Of a DNA stretch of 35,113 nucleotides, positions 4,546 to 32,770 are shown piece by piece. This DNA is from a virus. Location of the stretch: IMG/VR virus record IMGVR_UViG_637000270_000013; one strand, 5' to 3'. The notes below the pieces were generated by a model, which saw only the letters and a list, made by a program, of their open reading frames with translations, had not been told where the DNA came from and searched no databases. The position numbers and the translations under genes were made by a program. Each line of letters opens with the position of its first letter. The first letter of the stretch is position 1.

Positions 4546-4604
4546 AGTAATGATTTCCTTCTTAGTTAAGGAACATCACCACCTAGAGGTCTCAAACTCA
4601 TATT

Positions 4605-4682
4605 GGTGGCGAGCTGAACAGGGTTGAGACTACCGGCTAAGAAGGACCCGGCGAGCCTTGCGGCTCCCCCATCCAGCCCACC
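4605..4682 (-). ncRNA. c4-type antisense RNA (P1 c4 / P4 CI-like), copy A
   Basis: Cloverleaf closed by GGTGG/CCACC with a GAGCC-GCAA-GGCTC GNRA hairpin; carries b' CCTTCTTAG and a' GTCTCAA, complementary to flanking a1/b1 and a2/b2 sites. Confidence 0.85.
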
Positions 4683-4703
4683 ATTATTCTGATATGGCGG
4701 ACT

Positions 4704-4805
4704 GACGCATAAAAAAACACGTTCTCGGCGTGTTATGCGCCTTCTTAGATAACCGGGGTCTCAAACCCGACACCTGAATTTGCAGGTGCGGATTGACTAT
4801 AGCGC
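4704..4805 (-). promoter_or_regulatory. c4 a1-b1 target leader and terminator-like hairpin, copy A
   Basis: Minus strand: CACCTG..CAGGTG hairpin, a1 TTTGAGAC (4758-4765), b1 CTAAGAAGG (4740-4748), then an ACACG..CGTGT hairpin with a T7 run. Confidence 0.75.
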
Positions 4806-5735: not shown

Positions 5736-5852
5736 AACGATTTCTCCATAATTAAACGGATTTGTTTAAAAGGTATTAGGGGGCTAACTTGCAAAATTTT
5801 GCAGATTGGCGGTCAGATCGCTTACACTTGGCTTTACACAGGAGGATCCCCT

Positions 5853-6260
5853 ATGGGCCAAGTCGCATTTGATACATTGCAGGCGTTAGAAGAGCTTGAA
5901 ACCGCTGGCATCTCTAGAGAGCAAGCGCGGGCGATTTCGCTCGTTGTACGCAAGTCGCATGAAGTGGCGGATGTGGCTACAAAGGCCGATATCGCTGAGG
6001 TAAATCGGAATGTCGCCGATGTCCGTAAGGACCTATCCGCAGAGATCGCCGATGTCCGTAAGGATATAGCTCATCGCTTCGAGAAAACAGAGGCGCAGAT
6101 ATCTGACGTTCGTAAGGATATGCAGTTAGTCCGCAAAGATTTACAGCTTGAGATGGCGGGTATTCGCTCAGAGCAAAAACTCATGCGCTGGATGCTGGGG
6201 TTTGGGGTTATCGGTATTTTGTCGTTGGTGGTCAAAGCATTTGTAATGCCTGTTCTGTAA
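5853..6260 (+). CDS. DUF1640/CCDC90-like coiled-coil protein with C-terminal membrane anchor, copy A
   Basis: 'AFDTL...LETAGISREQARAI...VATKADI', 11-residue repeats, hydrophobic C-terminus; AGGAGG SD. Confidence 0.85.
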   Translation: MGQVAFDTLQALEELETAGISREQARAISLVVRKSHEVADVATKADIAEVNRNVADVRKDLSAEIADVRKDIAHRFEKTEAQISDVRKDMQLVRKDLQLEMAGIRSEQKLMRWMLGFGVIGILSLVVKAFVMPVL

Positions 6261-6330
6261 TGCGCCAATCGGGTGTATATTTGGGTGCGGCAAAAATACC
6301 TTATCTCTTTGTTTTCAAATCAATTATGGG

Positions 6331-6339
6331 TGTTAACCT
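6331..6339 (+). promoter_or_regulatory. Putative extended -10 promoter of the tRNA-like gene
   Basis: TG-t-TAACCT ending 15 nt before the tRNA 5' end. Confidence 0.45.
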
Positions 6340-6354
6340 ACACCTGCGCCAATT

Positions 6355-6433
6355 GGGTCGGTAGCTCAGATTGGAAGAGCGTACGTGTTATCAAACCGTA
6401 AGGACGCGGGTTCGATGCCTGCTCGACCCTCCA
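6355..6433 (+). tRNA. tRNA-like gene with a 19-nt anticodon arm, identity undetermined, copy A
   Basis: Acceptor GGGTCGG/TCGACCC, D arm GCTC/GAGC, T arm GCGGG-TTCGATG-CCTGC, T73 and encoded CCA; anticodon arm TACGTGTTATCAAACCGTA. Confidence 0.8.
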
Positions 6434-6436
6434 CTT

Positions 6437-6673
6437 TCAGCAACATACCTCCTGCGTCAGACGGCGAACCTGCTTGCGTAGTCGCTTGTTGTCTTCGGCC
6501 ATATATTCGATCACTGCCCTGAGCGTCCGGGTCTCCCAGTCTTCGTTAGGTTGCCTGCCCAGACTGACCAGATAGCGGGCATCGTCGATACTCTCGCCGC
6601 CGTTGGTGATGGCCACCACTTCTCCTATATTGGGGTGCCTGAAGGTCAGCACCCGTGCATTATCCAGTTTCAT
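6437..6673 (-). CDS. Hypothetical phage protein (intact copy A)
   Basis: 78-aa ORF with GGAG SD; IS-interrupted homologue at 23771-25032. Confidence 0.7.
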   Translation of the reverse strand: MKLDNARVLTFRHPNIGEVVAITNGGESIDDARYLVSLGRQPNEDWETRTLRAVIEYMAEDNKRLRKQVRRLTQEVCC

Positions 6674-6807: not shown

Positions 6808-7292
6808 ATGCGAACGTTAAACGAGAGGCATACTATGCTACTTCGCACGTTGAACAATCCCGACCGTCTTATGGCACCCATTGATGAAGAAACGTTCGAC
6901 CACCTCCGGGAGACCTTTGGTGACGATGTTCTGGCGCGTGATTTAACCTATTTGACATCCATCGGTCTGGTTCAGGCGGATGCAGCGATAATTGGTGCTG
7001 ACGGGATGGTGCATTTTAATCGTGGATGTATGGGCCTTACTGCTGTCGGCGTGTGGGCACCGTTGGCTCTGAGATTAATGCGTTTGAAATCAAGATACAT
7101 AAACAGACCCTTGATCAATTAGAGAATCTCATCAACGCTGCTAACCTTGGAGACCGCGAGAAGCACTCTCTTCTCCAGATGGTAAAAGAAAAAGGTGCAG
7201 AAGCTGTTGTCGGTAAGTGTGTTGATATCGTCTTCGCGAATGCTGCCATTGCGACGTAGGTCTTGCATCACTTGGCTGACTATGTGAAGTGA
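6808..7292 (+). pseudogene. Moron-like hypothetical protein, frameshift near 7050 and stop at 7257
   Basis: ORFs 6751-7122 and 7026-7259 join into one coherent reading; GAGGA SD; antisense to the early operon. Confidence 0.55.
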
Positions 7293-7307
7293 ATACTTCG
7301 GCGTTGG

Positions 7308-7576
7308 CTAAAATATGATTTCAGGCGTTCTATCATCCAGCACGATGACTTCGCCCCCCAGCGCTCTGAGCCGGTCGTGTTCGCGCCTCTGGGAGGGGCG
7401 TGCTTTCTGCCCCGGCGCTTTGCATTCCACAAACAGCACCCGGCCACCAGGTAAGACGACCAGACGGTCAGGTACGCCCGCCTGCTCGGCGATACAAACT
7501 TGTAGGCGATGCCGCCGGTGGCTTTTACCGCGCGGATAAGCTGTTGCTCGATGGCTTTTTCTCTTAGGTAGTACAT
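7308..7576 (-). pseudogene. VRR-NUC domain nuclease, copy A, frameshifted
   Basis: 'MYYLREKAIEQQL...GGIAYKFVSP' then 'AGVPDRLVVLPGGRVLFVECKAPG..RPSQ'. Confidence 0.9.
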
Positions 7577-9074
7577 GCTTATGCCTTCCCGTCATTAATG
7601 GCTCTCGCTAAAGCGCCGGTGCTGGTGTTGGGCGAGGGTTTTGCCATACGGTCAGCGGTCAAAAAGTCATAAACAACGTTGCCGTTGCCGAAGTCCCACG
7701 CGTTACAGTTAGCGTTGGCGAACGGTACGATGGTCATGGATGGTTTTTCAATGTTCATCGAGTTATTCCTTCCGGTAATAAAGCGCTTCAAACCCGCCAG
7801 CGTTAAGCGGCAGGCCATCGGCCCAATGTGGGGTAGTTGCCAGTAGGGTGCTTAGCGCGTCATGCGTGTAGTCATCGGTATCCGGCGCTTCGCAGACCAC
7901 CTCATCGTGTACCGTTAAAACAATCTCGTAGCCGTGCTCTTCAATCACGGGCATGGCTGCTGCCAGCACGTCACGCGTGGCTGCTTGGGTGAGATTTTCC
8001 GCAATTTTTCCGGAATATGTTTTGAGCCGGTCCCATTTGTGCTTGTACGGGTCCATGCCCATGTAGGTCACTTCCCCTCTCCCGGGTAACAGACGACCCG
8101 GCCCGAGGGCAGGGCGATGCGCAGCCACGCACCGTCGCGCCGGATTTTGACGCGCCGACAAGGCAGCGTGCACCCGGGTGTTCAATGGTGTGCCGTACCC
8201 CGTCCTCCAGTGTCCGCCAGAACGAGATGGTCTTTGGATGCGCGTCCCGCCACAGGCGTTTTATCGAATTACAGGCAACAAACACGCGCTCTGTCAGCCC
8301 GTAGGTTTTCTTCCGCTTTACGGACTCGGCGTACCAGTTTCCGGCCTCGCGGATAATTGTCGCCGGTATGGAGGGCAGGGCCACATCGGCCAGCGCATCG
8401 AGGTCAAGGCCGTAGGCGAGGGCAAAGGTCACGAAGGCTGCCACGCCGCCGCCATACCCCAATCCGAGCTCCATCACCTTACCGACTTGCCTTTGCGCTT
8501 TGGTCATTTCGCTTGGGTCGATGTGGAACGCCTTGGCGTAGGCCAGCTTGTACAGGTCATCGCCGATACCAGCGTCATAATCGCGGAATGCCTGCAGCTT
8601 CCATTCCTCGCCCGCCAGCCACGCCAGCATCCGGCCTTCGATATTGCTCAGGTCGGATACTACTAGCTTCTTACCTTCGGGCGTGCGGATGCAGGCGCGT
8701 AGTGCAGAACTGGTGAGCGGCATAACGTCGAACGCCAAATCTGCCACGCCCTTTTTCAGCGCCTTTATCCCCAGGTCAATCTCTGCCTGTGACATGGATG
8801 GCCGAGGGAGGTTGTCGGGCTGAAAAAGCCGCCCCGCCCAGCTCCCGGTACGTGAGGCACCACAAAACTGCTTGGTGCCGCGTAAACGGCCATCGCGGCT
8901 GACGGATTCGACCAATTTCTCGTACTTACTGGTGCTGGTTGTACAGGATTGGAGACGGACGATCAGCCGTTCGCGCAACGCTATCGGCAGATCGGGGTCG
9001 TTGATACGCCGCTTAAGTGTACTTTTCTGCATATCCGGCAGGGTAATGCCGAAGGCGTTAACGATATGGTTGAT
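7326..9074. repeat. ~1.75-kb direct repeat, copy 1 (copy 2 at 25765-27513)
   Basis: Constant offset of 18439; the translated ORFs are identical in both copies. Confidence 0.95.
7579..7758 (-). CDS. Small hypothetical phage protein
   Basis: MNIEKPS... lies between pol and VRR-NUC, AAGGA SD; duplicated at 26018-26197. Confidence 0.45.
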   Translation of the reverse strand: MNIEKPSMTIVPFANANCNAWDFGNGNVVYDFLTADRMAKPSPNTSTGALARAINDGKA

Positions 9075-9813
9075 CATGGCGTCGCGCCGGGGTGGACCCC
9101 ACCTCGCCGTCGGTGAGCTCTTCCGTGCGCTTGTCGAGGTGTTTTTTCTCCTCTGTGATGGCGGCCATCGCAATTTCGGCCAGCGCCATATCCATGCACA
9201 TGCCATGGCGATTGATGTGCTGGTCAAGACGCCATAGCGCTATTTCAAACGGGGTGAGGTTCCAGCGTGGCATCCGTTGCCAGATTACCCGCATCGCCTC
9301 TATATCTGCCGCGGCGTACTCGACAAAACGTTGCCATTCTTCCGGGTGCGTATCGCGGTTCGGGCGACGGATTTTGTGAGTCCGTGGTTGTGGTTTACAG
9401 AAGATCTTAACAAGCTGCCTGCCGGATTTGTCCTTGGCCTGGTTGGTTGGGACGTTCAGTACCTCACACAGCGCACCCAGCGAACCGGGCAGGCTGTGCG
9501 CATAGGCTTGGGCCATTGTGTCGTGTATACGCTCGAGCGGAATATCGATACCTAAAGTATGTTGCAGCACCACGGAGTCGAACATGCCGCCGTTGTGCCA
9601 GACAGTTATGACCTGCGGGTCATCAAGCACAGCGCTTAACGCCTCGAGCATCGGGTCGCAGGTAGTGAGGTCCCACACATTGACCGGGCCATCGCCGATC
9701 GCCCAGGCAAACAGCAGTACTTCGGCGTTTTCAGCATAGCGGTGCGTACCGCAGTTAAGCGGCGTTTCGCAGTACGTCTCAAGGTCCGCGAAAAGCGGAG
9801 GTGGGGAAGTCAT
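7763..9813 (-). pseudogene. Family A phage DNA polymerase (APSE-like), three fragments
   Basis: Exonuclease 'FADLET', 'VWHNGGMFD', 'YAAADI'; motif A '[11 protein letters not shown]'; motif B '[14 protein letters not shown]'; motif C 'LTVHDE'. Confidence 0.95.
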
Positions 9814-9882
9814 AGGGTAAATCCGTTATCGATGGCTGACCGGAGCACCTGGCGCGAGGCCGGGCGGGTAAATGCGGTGGGT

Positions 9883-10130
9883 TTAAGCGAATTCTTCCGC
9901 GTTAGCACCTACGGTCAGGTCCTCGAAATCCTCTTCGGACGCCGGTGCGCCACCGCCAAAAGCGTCGTCATCACGCAGGAACTGGACCCCACCGAGGGAT
10001 GCGGAGATGCCTTTGTTGCCTTGCTGTCGTACGCGAAGAGGGTGTCGTGGCGTTGACATAGCAACCCGAGTAGGGTTTGCCATCGGCGGCGGCCAGTGGG
10101 GTGCGATCCGTGTCGATAACCAAGGGGTGG
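9883..10130 (-). pseudogene. DUF2815-type ssDNA-binding protein, C-terminal remnant
   Basis: 'GNKGISASLGGVQFLRDDDAFGGG..SEEDFEDL' with acidic tail; fused to the upstream gene by deletion. Confidence 0.75.
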
Positions 10131-10139
10131 GCTTTGTTG

Positions 10140-11037
10140 CTGGCTTTAGCTCATCGGGTGTAAGCGCCGCGACCCGTTTCGGCGCGTTGGCCAGTTGCGG
10201 GGCCAACGGTTGCGTCAGGTCGACAAAATCCCCCGCGGTCAGATTGAGGTAGTATTCCGTCTCGGCTTTACAGCGACCGTCGGCGGCTTTACACCAGCGG
10301 CATTGCTTTTCGCCAGGTGTGAACACGTCGGCGGGCAGGGTATCGACCCCTTCGCAATCGGTGATGTTCGCCGTGACAATTGCCGCGGCCGCGGCTTCCC
10401 TTGCCTGTTCGAAAAACGCTTCCAGCTCAGTGACGCTGAGCGCCCATTCCGAGGTACGATTCAGGCGTGGTTGATGGATGAACAACCGTACGCGGTCGAA
10501 GTTCTGCGCCAGACTGAAATAGGCCAACGCGCCGAGGGCGTAGAGCTGTAGCTGTTTATTGTTCTCGGCGTCCACCTTCAGGAAACCGTATTTCAGGTCG
10601 TGGATTTGCAGCTCGCTACCGGCGAGGATGATGGCGTCAGCGGTGCCGAATTGTTCAGGCATTCCGATAACCTTTGAGAAGTCCACGTGCCGCTCTACCA
10701 GCAGGTCATTACCCTAGGCCCGCGCCTATACCGTATCGATATAGCGTTGTACATGCTCGGCCATCTCCTCGGTCACCTGCGGGCCGATAGGCTTTCCCCC
10801 TTTTGCCAGCGGGTAGGTGCCAATGTAGGCGGCGTCTTGACCGCCGCTGAGCGGTTTACCTGCTAGTGTTGGGTTGAGCCGGTTGTTCAGGACATTTTCC
10901 GCGACCCGGCGCGTGGCGCTGCCCTCCTCAGCGTACGATGAGGTGCTTTCGGGAAGGCCCGCTTCCATCGCCAGACTGCCGCGACAGTTGAGCCATTTCT
11001 CCACGCTGGAGGGGGCTAATTGCGCATGCTCTGCCAT
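10140..11037 (-). pseudogene. DUF2800 PD-(D/E)XK nuclease-like protein, disrupted and truncated
   Basis: 'HAQLAPSS..WLNC..S...SSYAEEG', 'FGTADAII', 'IHDLKYG', 'NKQLQLYALGA', 'QPRL', 'QCRWCKA...C'. Confidence 0.88.
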
Positions 11038-21989: not shown

Positions 21990-22046
21990 AATGACCTCCT
22001 GCGGTTACTTTGTGTAATCACCACCTAGAGGTCTGAAACTCATATT

Positions 22047-22121
22047 GGTGGTGAACTGAACAGGTTTCAGACTACCGAGTAACCAACTAGCCAGCCTTTC
22101 GGCTGCCCCATTCAGTCCACC
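22047..22121 (-). ncRNA. c4-type antisense RNA, copy B
   Basis: Same fold as copy A with a CAGCC-GAAA-GGCTG hairpin; b' GGTTACT and a' GTCTGAAA match this copy's own flanking targets. Confidence 0.85.
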
Positions 22122-22149
22122 ATTATTAGGACGTACGGATGTTTTTGGA

Positions 22150-22250
22150 CAATAAAAAAACACGCTCGCGGCGTGTCACATTGTCGCGGTCACTTCGGCG
22201 GGGTCTGAAACCTGACACCTGAATTTGCAGGTGCAGATTGACTATAGCGC
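22150..22250 (-). promoter_or_regulatory. c4 a1-b1 target leader and terminator-like hairpin, copy B
   Basis: a1 TTTCAGAC (22203-22210), b1 AGTGACC (22188-22194), ACACG..CGTGT hairpin with a T7 run. Confidence 0.7.
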
Positions 22251-23138: not shown

Positions 23139-23255
23139 AACGATTTCTCCATAGTTAAACGGATGTAGTTAAGAGGTATTAGGGGGCTAGCTTGCAAAAT
23201 TTTGCAGGTTGGTGTTCAGATCGCTTACACTTGGCGTAACACAGGAGGATTACCT

Positions 23256-23570
23256 ATGGGCCAAGTTGCATTTGATACTCAAGAGTTTGTCGAAACACTG
23301 GAAAAGTCTGGCTTGAATAAAGAGCAAGCTAAGGCGATTTCTATTGCTGTGCGTAAATCTCATGAGGTTGCTGATGTTGCAACCAAGCGCGATCTTGATG
23401 ATGTCCGTAAAGACCTATCCGCAGAGATCGCTGATGTCCGTAAGGATATGGCTGTGGGATTTGATAAAATTAACGATAAATTTGAAAAGCTTAGTATGCA
23501 GATGATGATTCGCCTTGGGCTAATGGTCGCAGCTGCAGTCAGTATTATCGCCGCCATCCTCAAGATATGA
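23256..23570 (+). CDS. DUF1640/CCDC90-like protein, copy B
   Basis: 'AFDTQEFVETLEKSGLNKEQAKAI...VATKRDL', C-terminal TM; AGGAGG SD. Confidence 0.85.
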   Translation: MGQVAFDTQEFVETLEKSGLNKEQAKAISIAVRKSHEVADVATKRDLDDVRKDLSAEIADVRKDMAVGFDKINDKFEKLSMQMMIRLGLMVAAAVSIIAAILKI

Positions 23571-23688: not shown

Positions 23689-23767
23689 GGGTCGGTAGCT
23701 CAGATTGGAAGAGCGTACGTGTTATTAAACCGTAAGGACGCGGGTTCGATGCCTGCTCGACCCTCCA
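23689..23767 (+). tRNA. tRNA-like gene with expanded anticodon arm, copy B
   Basis: Identical to 6355-6433 except for one loop base (TTATTAAA versus TTATCAAA). Confidence 0.8.
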
Positions 23768-23962
23768 CTTTCAGCAACACCCCTCCTGCGTCAGGCGCCT
23801 AACCTGTTTGCGTAGTCGCTTGTTGTCTTTGGCCATATACTCAATCACTGCCCTGAGCGTCTGGGCTTCCCCCAGTCTTCGTTAGGCTGCCTGCCCAGAC
23901 TGACCGCGGACATCGTCGATACTCTCGCCGCCGTTGGTGATGGCGACGACCTCTCCCTATAT

Positions 23963-24986
23963 CTCGATCATTGTACTCAGGGTATTATGATCCCCGACTG
24001 ATTAGCACGTGCAAATTCTCACCCCTGTCGGCATTGATGTTGCTTCCCAGAAATTTGACGTTGCAGTCTGGAAAGGTAAAGCAGCCTACAAATTCAAAGC
24101 CTTTTCTAACACGCCTAAGGGTTTCGATGCGCTGAAAAAATGGCTTGAGCCGTTCGGTGACTGCCATATATGTATGGAAGCAACAGGTGCTTACAGTGAG
24201 CCATTGTCTACTTTCCTGGCTGATGCAGGTTACGCTGTGAGCGTGGAAAATCCAGCACGCATAAAATCATTCTGCTGCAGTGAACTGAGTCGTAACAAGA
24301 CAGATAAAGGCGATGCACGCATGATCGCGCGTTATTGTAAGCTGCATGCTCCCGTGTTGTGGCAACCGTTGCCGCTGAATGAAAGAAAGCTGAAAGCGTT
24401 GGTCAACCGGCTAATAAATCTGCAGGAAATGAAGCAGATGGAAGAAAATCGCCTGGAAACAGCCTCCCGTTAGTACAGGTTTCCATCTGCACGGTCATCG
24501 CTGCGCTGGATACCCAAATAGCAGAGATAAAACAGGCGATGGACAATCATATAGGCAACTATCCAAGTCTTAAGCAAAACAGGGAACTGTTGGAATCGAT
24601 CCCTGGGATAGCTGGCGTGTTGAGTAGCATGATATTGGGCTATTTTGGTGATATGTCACGATTCGATAGCAGCAAAGCTGTCGAGGCTTGGGCTGGTCTG
24701 AATCCGATGTTGCAGGAGTCTGGGCTGTGGAAAGGTAAAAGTCGGATATCAAAGGTGGGCAGCGCCATGATACGTAAAGCCCTGTATATGCCGGCCCTGA
24801 CGGTAATGTGCTATAACCCAGCAATAATAGCGCTGAAAGAGCGTATGAATGCACGTAATAAATCAGGGAAAGTTGTCGTATGTGCGGCAATGAAGAAACT
24901 ATTGCAACAAGCTTACGGAGTGCTGAAATCAGGGCAGGTGTTCGATGCTGGAATATGTCTTGCAAGATAACTGGCAAGACGGTATC
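23963..24986 (+). mobile_element. IS110-family element (~1.02 kb)
   Basis: Ends defined (to within a few nt) by the empty site at ~6625; right end CAAGACGGTATC; no terminal IRs. Confidence 0.88.
24009..24970 (+). pseudogene. IS110 DEDD recombinase, frameshift near 24470
   Basis: 'VGIDVAS', 'CMEATGAY', 'NKTDKGDA', 'SIPGI', 'GLNP..QESG', 'RKALYMPA'. Confidence 0.92.
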
Positions 24987-25164
24987 TATTGGGGTGCCTG
25001 AAGGTCAGCACCCATGCGTTAGCCAGTTTCATGATTCAATTCTCCGTAGACTGCTTGTGGTGCCTGATTTGATAACCCTCTCAGGCGGCGAAGGTTCCTG
25101 CATTCCCCAATGCAAAGGAATCGGTTAAAATATGCTTACCCCAATGCAATATAAGGATAAGCCA

Positions 25165-32275: not shown

Positions 32276-32351
32276 GGGTCGTTAGCTCAGTTGGCAGAGC
32301 AGTTGACTCTTAATCAATTGGTCGTAGGTTCAAGCCCTACACGACCCACCA
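32276..32351 (+). tRNA. tRNA-Lys (anticodon CTT)
   Basis: 76-nt cloverleaf, GTTGA-CTCTTAA-TCAAT anticodon arm, A73 and CCA; TTGACG-17-AATAAT upstream. Confidence 0.95.
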
Positions 32352-32418: not shown

Positions 32419-32770
32419 CTACGCGAAAATGCTGTCGATGTGTCGTGCGTGATTAGTAAAATGATTAGGAGAAAAGTGAGTATATCTCCTCACCATTACT
32501 GTCGATTCGCCGCATTTGATTTCTGGTAATGCAGATAATGGAACTGCCGAACGTATCAACCCGTACGCCCAGGTATGCCGTAGGTCGTAAAAACGAGAAT
32601 CCATAATTCCGGCGTGCTGAAGGCACAAGGCTAAGCCTTATTACTATCGACACGCATTTTCTTAGTTGTGGAGCTAGAGTTCCATCTGGTAATGCATGGC
32701 GTCTGATAAATAAACACTCTGCGGTTATGCTTCGCCATTTTACTGCGCAAGGTACACCAAGCCGTGTCAA
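32419..32770 (-). pseudogene. Tyrosine integrase C-terminal relic
   Basis: '[10 protein letters not shown]...VPLSAL...[24 protein letters not shown]'; converges on the tRNA; TGTGTCG repeats at ~32399-32416. Confidence 0.85.

What the first reader, a model, noticed from the sequence alone, without database searches (positions are those of the whole stretch)
6355..6433. Conserved phage tRNA-like RNA with an expanded anticodon arm, present in both prophages
Seen: the acceptor, D and T arms and the CCA end are intact, but the anticodon arm is 19 nt rather than 17. It folds as a TACG/CGTA stem around 11 nt, or as a bulged 5-bp stem with an 8-nt loop. The copy at 23689-23767 differs at one base, in the loop (TTATCAAA versus TTATTAAA). 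The upstream DNA is unrelated between copies, yet each has a promoter-like site. Both copies follow a DUF1640 gene. The acceptor stem resembles tRNA-Lys but has T73. Inferred: selection preserves a non-standard tRNA. Options are a decoy or nuclease-resistant tRNA mimic, or a suppressor, since the loops contain TCA and TTA (complements of UGA and UAA) and an 8-nt loop is typical of +1 frameshift suppressors. The function is speculative.
Basis: partly seen in the sequence, partly recalled or inferred. Interest (0 to 1): 0.8.

Follow-up and report, generated by a model that had tools for sequence, protein, structure and literature searches.

The report
Remodelled tRNA-Lys relic kept in prophages
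Two decaying prophages carry a tRNA-shaped gene, descended from the lysine tRNA of APSE-type phages, whose anticodon arm has become a longer hairpin that probably cannot read codons, yet whose body evolves about four times more slowly than near-neutral sites next to it.

Summary
ARAGORN and Rfam call tRNA-like genes at 6355-6433 and 23689-23767. Each has a 19-nt anticodon arm, and they differ by one loop base.

- **Copies:** a third copy lies elsewhere in the genome. Ten further homologues occur in five other genomes and one metagenome contig. All have the expanded arm (TACG, 11-14 nt, CGTA).
- **Origin:** the prophages are APSE-like. In active APSE phages the same slot, after P47 (DUF1640-like) and before P49, holds a canonical tRNA-Lys(UUU or CUU). 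Outside the arm, the body is closest to host tRNA-Lys.
- **Not a decoder:** the triplet at the anticodon position is not conserved (AUC, AUU, GUU, CAC, CCC, or 4-6 nt). The Lys identity elements (a UUU anticodon; A73, which is U73 in most copies) are missing. A suppressor or frameshift role is therefore unlikely.
- **Not a neutral wreck:** across five copies from four sources it diverges 5.3%. Third codon positions of the adjacent P49-like gene diverge 21%.

My best reading is a non-decoding tRNA-Lys derivative that selection kept in the phage lineage. Its role is untested; I favour a tRNA mimic. Several copies are now decaying inside degraded prophages. RNA-seq contigs cover the locus.

Interest is moderate. 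I class it as a new variant of a known kind.

The parts
6355..6433 (+). tRNA-like gene, copy 1 (79 nt; encoded CCA, T73)
   Evidence: ARAGORN; Rfam RF00005 at 39.8 bits; sequence
6382..6400 (+). Expanded 19-nt anticodon arm of copy 1: TACG/CGTA stem around 11 nt. It can fold as 4 bp, a bulged U, GUU/AAC and the tetraloop AUCA.
   Evidence: The same architecture is present in all 13 homologues.
23689..23767 (+). tRNA-like gene, copy 2. It differs from copy 1 only at the arm apex (ATTA instead of ATCA).
5799..6260 (+). P47-like (DUF1640-like) gene upstream of copy 1. The likely start is the ATG at 5853.
   Evidence: phrog_9415 E 3e-32; Pfam CCDC90-like below the cut-off; 59-79% aa identity to APSE P47
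6261..6353 (.). 75-nt insertion (6270-6344) between 9-bp direct repeats TGCGCCAAT (6261-6269 and 6345-6353). It separates the P47 stop from copy 1.
   Evidence: Metagenome homologue L154 has a single repeat copy and no insert. The insert is unique in the genome.
6437..6673 (-). P49-like gene, convergent with the tRNA-like gene; its stop codon lies 3 nt beyond the tRNA-like 3' end.
   Evidence: phrog_30265; 38-39% aa identity to APSE P49. Codon positions 1 and 2 diverge 4-5% and position 3 diverges 21%, so it is a constrained gene.
23202..23570 (+). P47-like gene upstream of copy 2 (its C-terminal part is unrelated to that of copy 1)
23774..23956 (-). P49-like remnant downstream of copy 2. The gene is split by an IS110-family element at 24009-24970, and its first 15 codons lie at about 24988-25032.
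   Evidence: tblastn; Pfam DEDD_Tnp_IS110 and Transposase_20

Best explanation
The element descends from the tRNA-Lys gene that APSE-type phages carry between P47 (DUF1640-like) and P49. This version belongs to a phage lineage found in one group of related, IS-rich genomes (the genome sizes suggest Sodalis and its allies, which I did not verify).

Its acceptor, D and T arms and CCA end are still those of a tRNA-Lys-like molecule. The anticodon arm has been rebuilt into a longer hairpin: a 4-bp TACG/CGTA stem, probably extended by GUU/AAC, with a small apex of variable sequence. The Lys anticodon is gone, and most copies have U73 in place of the A73 identity element.

It therefore most likely does not decode and is probably not charged by LysRS. 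These two points are inferred from the sequence. The RNA is present in RNA libraries, continuous with the P47 3' end. The tRNA body and the arm's stem have been held by purifying selection since the arm changed. That is measured from sequence comparison, with the caveats listed in the Against line.

The mechanism I commit to is inference only. It is made and processed like a tRNA (RNase P at the 5' end, an encoded CCA). It then acts through its tRNA shape rather than through an anticodon. The likeliest role is a mimic or decoy that occupies a host factor which recognises the tRNA body or arm. The sealed arm would offer no 7-nt loop to cut.

In the degraded prophages that carry it today, several copies are visibly decaying.
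For: **Synteny and ancestry**
- P47 and P49 homology to APSE phages.
- APSE records annotate trnK (tRNA-Lys-UUU) in this slot, and ARAGORN confirms it.
- In IMG/VR, P47-like genes are followed by canonical tRNA-Lys UUU or CUU in 9 loci.
- Outside the arm, the nearest canonical tRNAs of the host are tRNA-Lys UUU at 76%, then CUU. Other classes reach 70% or less.
- Rouil et al. 2020 (PMC7313666) describe the APSE tRNA-Lys-(U/C)UU.

**Arm**
- All 13 homologues have TACG, 11-14 nt, CGTA.
- The pattern scans of viral and metagenome contigs allowed a normal arm but found none on this body.
- The apex differs between homologues: ATCA, ATTA, GTTA, CACC, CCCC, ACTAA, AACAAA, ATCAAAA.
- The minimum-energy fold is a bulged 7-bp hairpin with a tetraloop.

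**Constraint**
- Sliding identity is 93-97% in the element, 35-45% upstream and 82-92% downstream.
- Mean pairwise divergence is 5.3% in the element against 21% at P49 third positions and 4-5% at positions 1 and 2.
- Variable columns number 10 of 79 against 31 of 78 third positions (Fisher p = 1e-4; five copies from four sources).
- 96% of stem cells form standard pairs.

**Expression**
- RNA-library contigs from 3 studies cover the locus. One contig (6128-6384) bridges the P47 3' end into the element. Depth is uneven between neighbouring contigs.
Against: - No carrier found is an intact phage. Copy 1 sits beside a split family-A DNA polymerase, and copy 2 beside an IS-disrupted P49. Homologue L008 lies in an IS-riddled remnant.
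- Several copies carry damaging changes: an A1.C72 mismatch and loss of G19 in copy 3, T-stem mismatches in L004 and L006, a lost CCA or acceptor in L010 and L153.
- There are no double compensatory changes, so the fold has no covariation support.
- The copies are related and the phages are mosaic. The selection test overstates independence, and low divergence could partly reflect recent recombination through a shared 'linker'.
- Contigs cannot show strand, ends or a mature 79-nt RNA.
- No AriB-type (DUF4435) or PrrC/RloC-type (AAA_13) gene was found in the present host genome, so no candidate target for a decoy is in view.
- The GUU/AAC extension is broken in L008 and L010.
Confidence: 0.5

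Rival explanations
1. Plain tRNA pseudogene. The phage tRNA-Lys suffered an anticodon-arm lesion once in the ancestor of this phage lineage and has had no function since. The copies look alike only because the prophages are recent relatives.
For: - Intact APSE phages have a normal tRNA-Lys in this slot.
- The slot decays repeatedly in other symbiont prophages. Examples are a 73-nt form with a 5-nt loop (L158, L160) and 3' halves fused to the P47 stop (L167, L169, L170, L172-L174).
- Rouil 2020 reports 'internally degraded tRNA pseudogenes' in APSE strains 5D and ZA17.
- All carriers are degraded prophages.
- Several copies have broken pairs.
- There is no covariation.
Against: - The element diverges about 4 times less than third codon positions of the gene 3 nt away, and it is the best-conserved block of the region.
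- A neutral sequence should diverge at least as fast as those third positions.
- Changes between the better-kept copies fall mainly in loops, and the few stem changes keep pairing.
Confidence: 0.27
2. DNA-level 'linker'. The conserved block is kept because it is the homologous-recombination joint at which these mosaic phages swap the variable P47 3' region and the upstream modules. On this view no RNA function is needed.
For: - Homology between copies starts exactly at the 5' end of the element, and the upstream DNA is unrelated.
- At least three unrelated upstream types are joined to the same element.
- Flank identities do not track element identity. L008 is 85% identical in the element and 87% in P47. 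L007 is 90% in the element and 71% in P47. That pattern indicates mosaicism.
Against: - A joint explains a boundary. It does not explain why 79 nt with an intact cloverleaf, G18G19, a TTCGA loop and CCA are preserved.
- The downstream side shows no matching breakpoint. It is ordinary diverging coding sequence.
Confidence: 0.12
3. Working decoding tRNA with an unusual arm. This would be a stop-codon suppressor, a +1 frameshift suppressor with an 8-nt loop, or a mis-sense tRNA, read through a 6-position stem with U.C and G.A mismatches and a 7-nt loop.
For: - ARAGORN can fit a 7-nt loop UU-NNN-AA with U33 and A37 in most copies.
- tRNA-Sec shows that a 6-bp anticodon stem can work on the ribosome (established knowledge).
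- The body is under constraint.
Against: - The triplet at the anticodon position changes freely on one body: AUC, AUU, GUU, CAC, CCC.
- Loop length also varies, by up to 3 nt between homologues.
- Position 37 is C in L008 and L011.
- No aaRS identity set fits. For Lys, U73 stands in place of A73 and no copy has the UUU anticodon. Asp and Asn need G73. Gly needs C2:G71 and C35C36.
- TCA and TTA are offset from position 34-36 and are absent from most homologues.
Confidence: 0.08

Closest known systems
APSE phage tRNA-Lys-(U/C)UU (trnK between P47 and P49; Rouil et al. 2020, PMC7313666)
   Same: - It occupies the same slot, after the P47/DUF1640-like gene and convergent with P49.
- The sequence just 3' of the CCA is similar in both.
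- The T stem is the same (GCGGG/CCTGC).
- The body is tRNA-Lys-like.
   Different: - The APSE gene is 75-76 nt with a normal 5-bp stem, a 7-nt loop and a UUU or CUU anticodon.
- This element is 78-82 nt in the complete copies, has a 19-22 nt arm and no Lys anticodon.
- Its acceptor sequence differs (GGGTCGG against GGGCTGT), and it has U73.
Internally degraded tRNA pseudogenes in the same slot (APSE 5D and ZA17 per Rouil 2020; IMG/VR loci L158, L160, L167-L174)
   Same: A tRNA-Lys-derived gene in this slot has lost a readable anticodon loop while the T arm and the 3' acceptor persist.
   Different: - Those are one-off deletions or truncations that differ from locus to locus.
- Here one remodelled architecture is shared by all 13 homologues in six GTDB genera.
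- It is also conserved well below the near-neutral rate.
+1 frameshift suppressor tRNAs with 8-nt anticodon loops (sufD and SufB2 type)
   Same: The anticodon arm is longer than 17 nt, and one possible fold gives an 8-nt loop.
   Different: - The suppressors carry one extra base in the loop of an otherwise normal arm. They keep the parent's identity elements and a defined quadruplet.
- Here the arm is 2-5 nt longer, the apex sequence is not conserved, and the parent's identity elements are lost.
Phage tRNAs that evade or neutralise tRNA-targeting defences (van den Berg 2023, PMC10264068; Azam 2024, PMC11555353; T5 tRNA-Lys against PARIS AriB, PMC12409363)
   Same: It is a phage-borne tRNA-Lys relative whose differences from the host tRNA are concentrated in the anticodon stem-loop.
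   Different: - Those tRNAs keep the anticodon and replace the cleaved host tRNA in translation.
- This element has no Lys anticodon, so it could act only as a non-decoding mimic.
- No such decoy is known to me, and none was tested here.

Membership tests
Canonical elongator tRNA (Rfam RF00005) | 7-bp acceptor stem, 4-bp D stem with G18G19, 5-bp T stem with a TTCRA loop | tested here: met
   In copies 1 and 2 every stem position forms a standard pair.
Canonical elongator tRNA (Rfam RF00005) | 17-nt anticodon arm: 5-bp stem and a 7-nt loop with U33 and a purine at 37 | tested here: not met
   The arm is 19-22 nt in all 13 homologues. Infernal pairs 4 bp and leaves an 11-nt insert. ARAGORN places the anticodon at position 36 or 38. 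The score is 39.8 bits against 71.5 for a real tRNA-Lys.
tRNA-Lys (LysRS substrate) | Anticodon UUU or CUU (U35 is the major element) and discriminator A73. Identity rules are for E. coli LysRS, from established knowledge. | tested here: not met
   No Lys anticodon occurs in any homologue. The discriminator is T in most, A in L008 and C in L009.
APSE-type phage tRNA slot (orthology by position) | Lies directly after the P47/DUF1640-like gene and before the convergent P49 | tested here: met
   P47-like lies upstream in 12 of 13 homologues, and P49-like lies downstream in 9. APSE has the same order.
Nonsense suppressor tRNA | A conserved CUA, UCA or UUA at positions 34-36 of a 7-nt loop, with in-frame stops in the genes it serves | tested here: not met
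   TCA and TTA are offset by one from ARAGORN's anticodon and are absent from L006, L008, L009, L011 and L153. P47-like and P49-like are open under the standard code.
+1 frameshift suppressor tRNA | One extra nucleotide in an otherwise normal anticodon loop, giving a defined quadruplet on the parent's identity | tested here: not met
   The expansion is 2-5 nt, and the apex varies in both sequence and length.
Neutral tRNA pseudogene | Divergence equal to or above the near-neutral rate of neighbouring DNA | tested here: not met
   5.3% against 21% at P49 third positions; Fisher p = 1e-4 on variable columns. Caveat: the copies are related and the phages are mosaic.
tRNA-mimic decoy of a tRNA-targeting nuclease or toxin | It binds or inhibits a defined host or competitor enzyme | not testable with these tools
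   Only circumstantial evidence is available. No DUF4435 (AriB) or AAA_13 (PrrC/RloC) gene was found in the own genome.

The most novel reading that the evidence does not exclude
A phage-encoded, non-decoding tRNA mimic. It keeps a tRNA-Lys body, but its anticodon arm is sealed into an uncleavable hairpin. Selection would keep it because it soaks up a tRNA-targeting defence nuclease or toxin, or another factor that binds the tRNA body. That would be a decoy strategy distinct from the known 'replacement tRNA' strategy.
Probability: 0.2. Interest if true: 0.8.

Novelty: new variant of a known kind. Interest (0 to 1): 0.45.

Why it matters
Phage tRNAs are now understood partly as counter-measures to host enzymes that cut tRNA. 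Every known case keeps its anticodon and works in translation.

Here a phage tRNA-Lys descendant has lost any readable anticodon, yet it evolves at about the same rate as the constrained codon positions (first and second) of the neighbouring gene. If the constraint is real, it points to a use for the tRNA shape itself, such as a decoy, a processing signal or a protein-binding scaffold.

The element sits in a cultivable insect symbiont, so the idea can be tested. If the constraint is not real, the case still documents how the APSE tRNA-Lys slot decays in different symbiont lineages. It also warns that tRNA finders label these loci as tRNA-Asp, tRNA-Asn, tRNA-Gly or tRNA-Val.

Tried and rejected
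- **Antisense-regulator idea.** I searched each locus for sites complementary to its own arm apex. Only a 9-mer (TTTGATAAC, window 6709 and 25068) turned up. That is within chance expectation, and it does not change with the apex in other loci.
- **Genome-contig pattern scan**. It was swamped by ordinary tRNAs that share the GAGCGTACG...CGTAAG motif, all with a normal 9-nt spacing.
- **BLASTN of the element.** There was no related match in INPHARED phages, only 77% hits to Streptomyces phage tRNA-Phe, and no match in complete E. coli genomes.
- **Promoter and terminator consensus scans.** They found no + strand promoter directly upstream of either copy and no terminator just after either element.
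- **Covariation**. The family is too shallow, with no double-sided changes, so the result neither supports nor refutes the fold.
- **RNA-contig coverage.** Holes and contig breaks at 6355-6384 come from the three near-identical copies. The C>T at 6392 in two runs is the copy-2 variant chosen by the assembler, not editing.
- **Candidate decoy targets.** A search for AriB-like and PrrC/RloC-like genes in the own genome found none.
- **Unread paper.** Clark et al. 2007 on the 'heterodimeric prophage-like element' of Sodalis is not held in the library.
- **Unused tools.** Structure and complex prediction were not used, because no protein partner is in question.

Full report
**1. Observation**

ARAGORN calls tRNA genes at 6355-6433 and 23689-23767. 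It labels them 'Asp(atc)' and 'Asn(att)' and places the anticodon at position 36 rather than 34. Rfam's tRNA model matches both at 39.8 and 39.9 bits (gathering score 29). A normal tRNA-Lys(CUU) at 32276 in the same window scores 71.5 bits. Infernal pairs only four base pairs of the anticodon stem and leaves 11 nt between them where the model expects 9.

The sequence shows the following:
- a 7-bp acceptor stem;
- a 4-bp D stem with GG in the loop;
- a 5-bp T stem with a TTCGA loop;
- T73 and an encoded CCA;
- a 19-nt arm at 6382-6400.

The two copies differ only at 6392, C versus T. ViennaRNA folds the arm as 4 bp, a bulged U, three more pairs (GUU/AAC) and a tetraloop. ARAGORN's alternative is a 6-position stem with U.C and G.A mismatches and a 7-nt loop.

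The claim of a promoter-like site in each copy is not confirmed. The consensus scan finds no + strand site directly upstream of either copy. Copy 2 has only TTGACG-17-TACCTT. The DNA upstream of copy 1 is a 75-nt insertion between 9-bp direct repeats. A metagenome homologue lacks that insertion, and it is unique in the genome.

**2. More copies and relatives**

The own genome is 4,292,502 bp in 4 contigs. From memory, the sizes fit Sodalis glossinidius; I did not verify this. It holds a third copy at C1:158796-158873, 94% identical.

Searches of 400 genomes of the GTDB family and 120 relatives found homologues in five other genomes, each in its own GTDB genus. Pattern scans added two IMG/VR contigs, which duplicate one of those genomes, and one metagenome contig.

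All 13 distinct homologues share TACG, 11-14 nt, CGTA. The pattern used on the metagenome collection allowed a normal arm on this body and found none. INPHARED phages and complete E. coli genomes hold no related match.

**3. What it descends from**

The gene upstream is 59-79% identical in protein to P47 of the APSE phages of Hamiltonella, where it is annotated as DUF1640. The convergent gene downstream is 38-39% identical to APSE P49.

In APSE records the slot between P47 and P49 is annotated trnK, tRNA-Lys-UUU. ARAGORN finds a normal 75-nt tRNA-Lys there. Rouil et al. [quoted passage not shown]

Among 35 P47-like loci in IMG/VR, the slot holds one of:
- a normal tRNA-Lys UUU or CUU (9 loci);
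- a decayed form, such as a 73-nt gene with a 5-nt loop or only the 3' half fused to the P47 stop;
- the expanded-arm type (two loci, both from the one source genome that duplicates G025);
- no recognisable tRNA remnant.

Outside the arm, the nearest canonical tRNAs of the host are tRNA-Lys UUU (76%) and CUU. Other classes reach 70% or less. The element is therefore the positional orthologue of a phage tRNA-Lys and is tRNA-Lys-like in body.

**4. Does it decode?**

On one conserved body, the triplet at ARAGORN's anticodon position is AUC, AUU, GUU, CAC or CCC. Three homologues have 1-3 extra nucleotides there. The discriminator is U in most copies, A in one and C in one.

By the established identity rules:
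- Lys needs U35 and A73;
- Asp and Asn need G73;
- Gly needs C2:G71 and C35C36;
- Ala needs G3.U70;
- Ser and Leu need a long variable arm.

No synthetase fits. The invariant bases inside the '11-nt loop' (GTT after the bulge, AAC before CGTA) can pair with each other. That leaves a 4-7 nt apex as the only freely varying part. This is the pattern of a hairpin tip, not of an anticodon. Stop-codon or frameshift suppression is therefore unlikely.

**5. Relic or constrained?**

All carriers I could examine are degraded prophages.
- Next to copy 1, the family-A DNA polymerase is split into pieces, and DUF2800 and the ssDNA-binding gene are fused.
- Next to copy 2, an IS110-family element splits P49.
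- The best-looking homologue (L008) lies in an IS-riddled remnant beside the host ptsI, crr and cysK genes.

Several copies carry damaging changes, and there are no double compensatory changes.

Even so, the element is the best-conserved block of the region. Identity is 93-97% within it, 35-45% upstream and 82-92% downstream. Rates across five copies from four sources:

| Sites compared | Mean pairwise divergence | Variable columns |
|---|---|---|
| P49-like, codon positions 1 and 2 | 4-5% | 17 of 156 |
| P49-like, codon position 3 | 21% | 31 of 78 |
| tRNA-like element | 5.3% | 10 of 79 |

Comparing the element with third positions gives Fisher p = 1e-4 on variable columns. P49 is thus a real, constrained gene, and the element evolves at about the rate of its constrained positions.

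The copies are related and these phages are mosaic, so the p-value overstates independence. Still, a sequence that had been neutral since the arm changed should not be four times slower than adjacent near-neutral sites. I conclude that the remodelled RNA, or its DNA, was under selection in the phage lineage. It is now decaying in some dead prophages.

**6. Expression**

Contigs from RNA libraries of three studies cover the locus. One contig runs from the P47 3' end across the spacer into the element. Depth differs several-fold between neighbouring contigs, which is not what flat DNA carry-over would give. Contigs cannot show strand, ends or a mature small RNA.

**7. Mechanism**

These points come from the searches and measurements above:
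- descent from the tRNA-Lys slot;
- a fixed remodelled arm with a free apex;
- constraint on the body;
- presence in RNA libraries.

These points are inferred:
- it is processed like a tRNA;
- it is not charged and does not decode;
- it acts through its shape.

My preferred guess is a mimic that occupies a factor recognising tRNA, with an arm that offers no 7-nt loop to cut. The present host shows no AriB-like or PrrC/RloC-like gene, so the target, if any, is unknown. A test for an antisense target of the apex found nothing beyond chance.

The rivals are:
- a plain pseudogene, which fits the decay of the slot elsewhere and the dead carriers but not the rates;
- a DNA-level recombination joint, which fits the sharp homology boundary at the 5' end but not the preserved cloverleaf;
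- an odd decoding tRNA, which is contradicted by the free apex and the missing identity elements.

**8. Comparison and verdict**

The element fails the defining anticodon-arm feature of canonical tRNAs. It also fails the identity features of tRNA-Lys and of suppressor tRNAs. It meets the positional definition of the APSE tRNA slot.

I class it as a new variant of a known kind, namely a phage tRNA and its decay products. Interest is moderate. The interesting reading, a selected non-decoding tRNA mimic, can be tested with standard RNA assays in a cultivable symbiont.

Noticed in passing
window 4602-4802 and 22044-22234 (- strand): Each prophage carries a C4 antisense RNA (RF01695, 76.9 and 49.9 bits) next to an isrK-like RNA (RF01394). 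Prophage 1 also has a c4-a1b1 target element. This is a P1/P7-style antisense immunity module in APSE-like prophages.
   Followed up: no
window 32276-32351 (+) and 32419-32628 (-): A normal tRNA-Lys(CUU) is followed by a fragment of a tyrosine-recombinase (Phage_integrase) gene, which looks like an old integration site. The genome holds four tRNA-Lys(CUU) genes, one of them internally deleted to 71 nt.
   Followed up: partly
window 24009-24970 (+): An IS110-family element lies inside the P49-like gene of prophage 2. Its transposase is itself split into two ORFs (DEDD_Tnp_IS110 and Transposase_20).
   Followed up: partly
window 6261-6353: A 75-nt insertion between 9-bp direct repeats (TGCGCCAAT) separates the P47 stop from tRNA-like copy 1. 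A metagenome homologue lacks it, and it is unique in the genome, so it is not a repeated MITE.
   Followed up: yes
window 7280-10686 (- strand): The replication module of prophage 1 is broken. VRR-NUC is frameshifted. The family-A DNA polymerase is split, with its exonuclease and polymerase domains in different ORFs. A DUF2800 fragment is fused to an ssDNA-binding fragment.
   Followed up: partly
IMG/VR loci L158, L160, L167, L169, L170, L172-L175: In other APSE-like prophages the tRNA-Lys slot decays in different ways. One form is a 73-nt gene with a 5-nt 'TAAAA' loop. Another keeps only the T arm and the 3' acceptor, fused to the P47 stop. The 3' half persists even when the 5' half is gone.
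   Followed up: partly
window 5799-6260 versus 23202-23570, and loci L003-L011: The C-terminal part of the P47-like protein and the spacer behind it are replaced by unrelated sequence in different copies. At least three types exist, and homology resumes exactly at the first base of the tRNA-like gene.
   Followed up: partly
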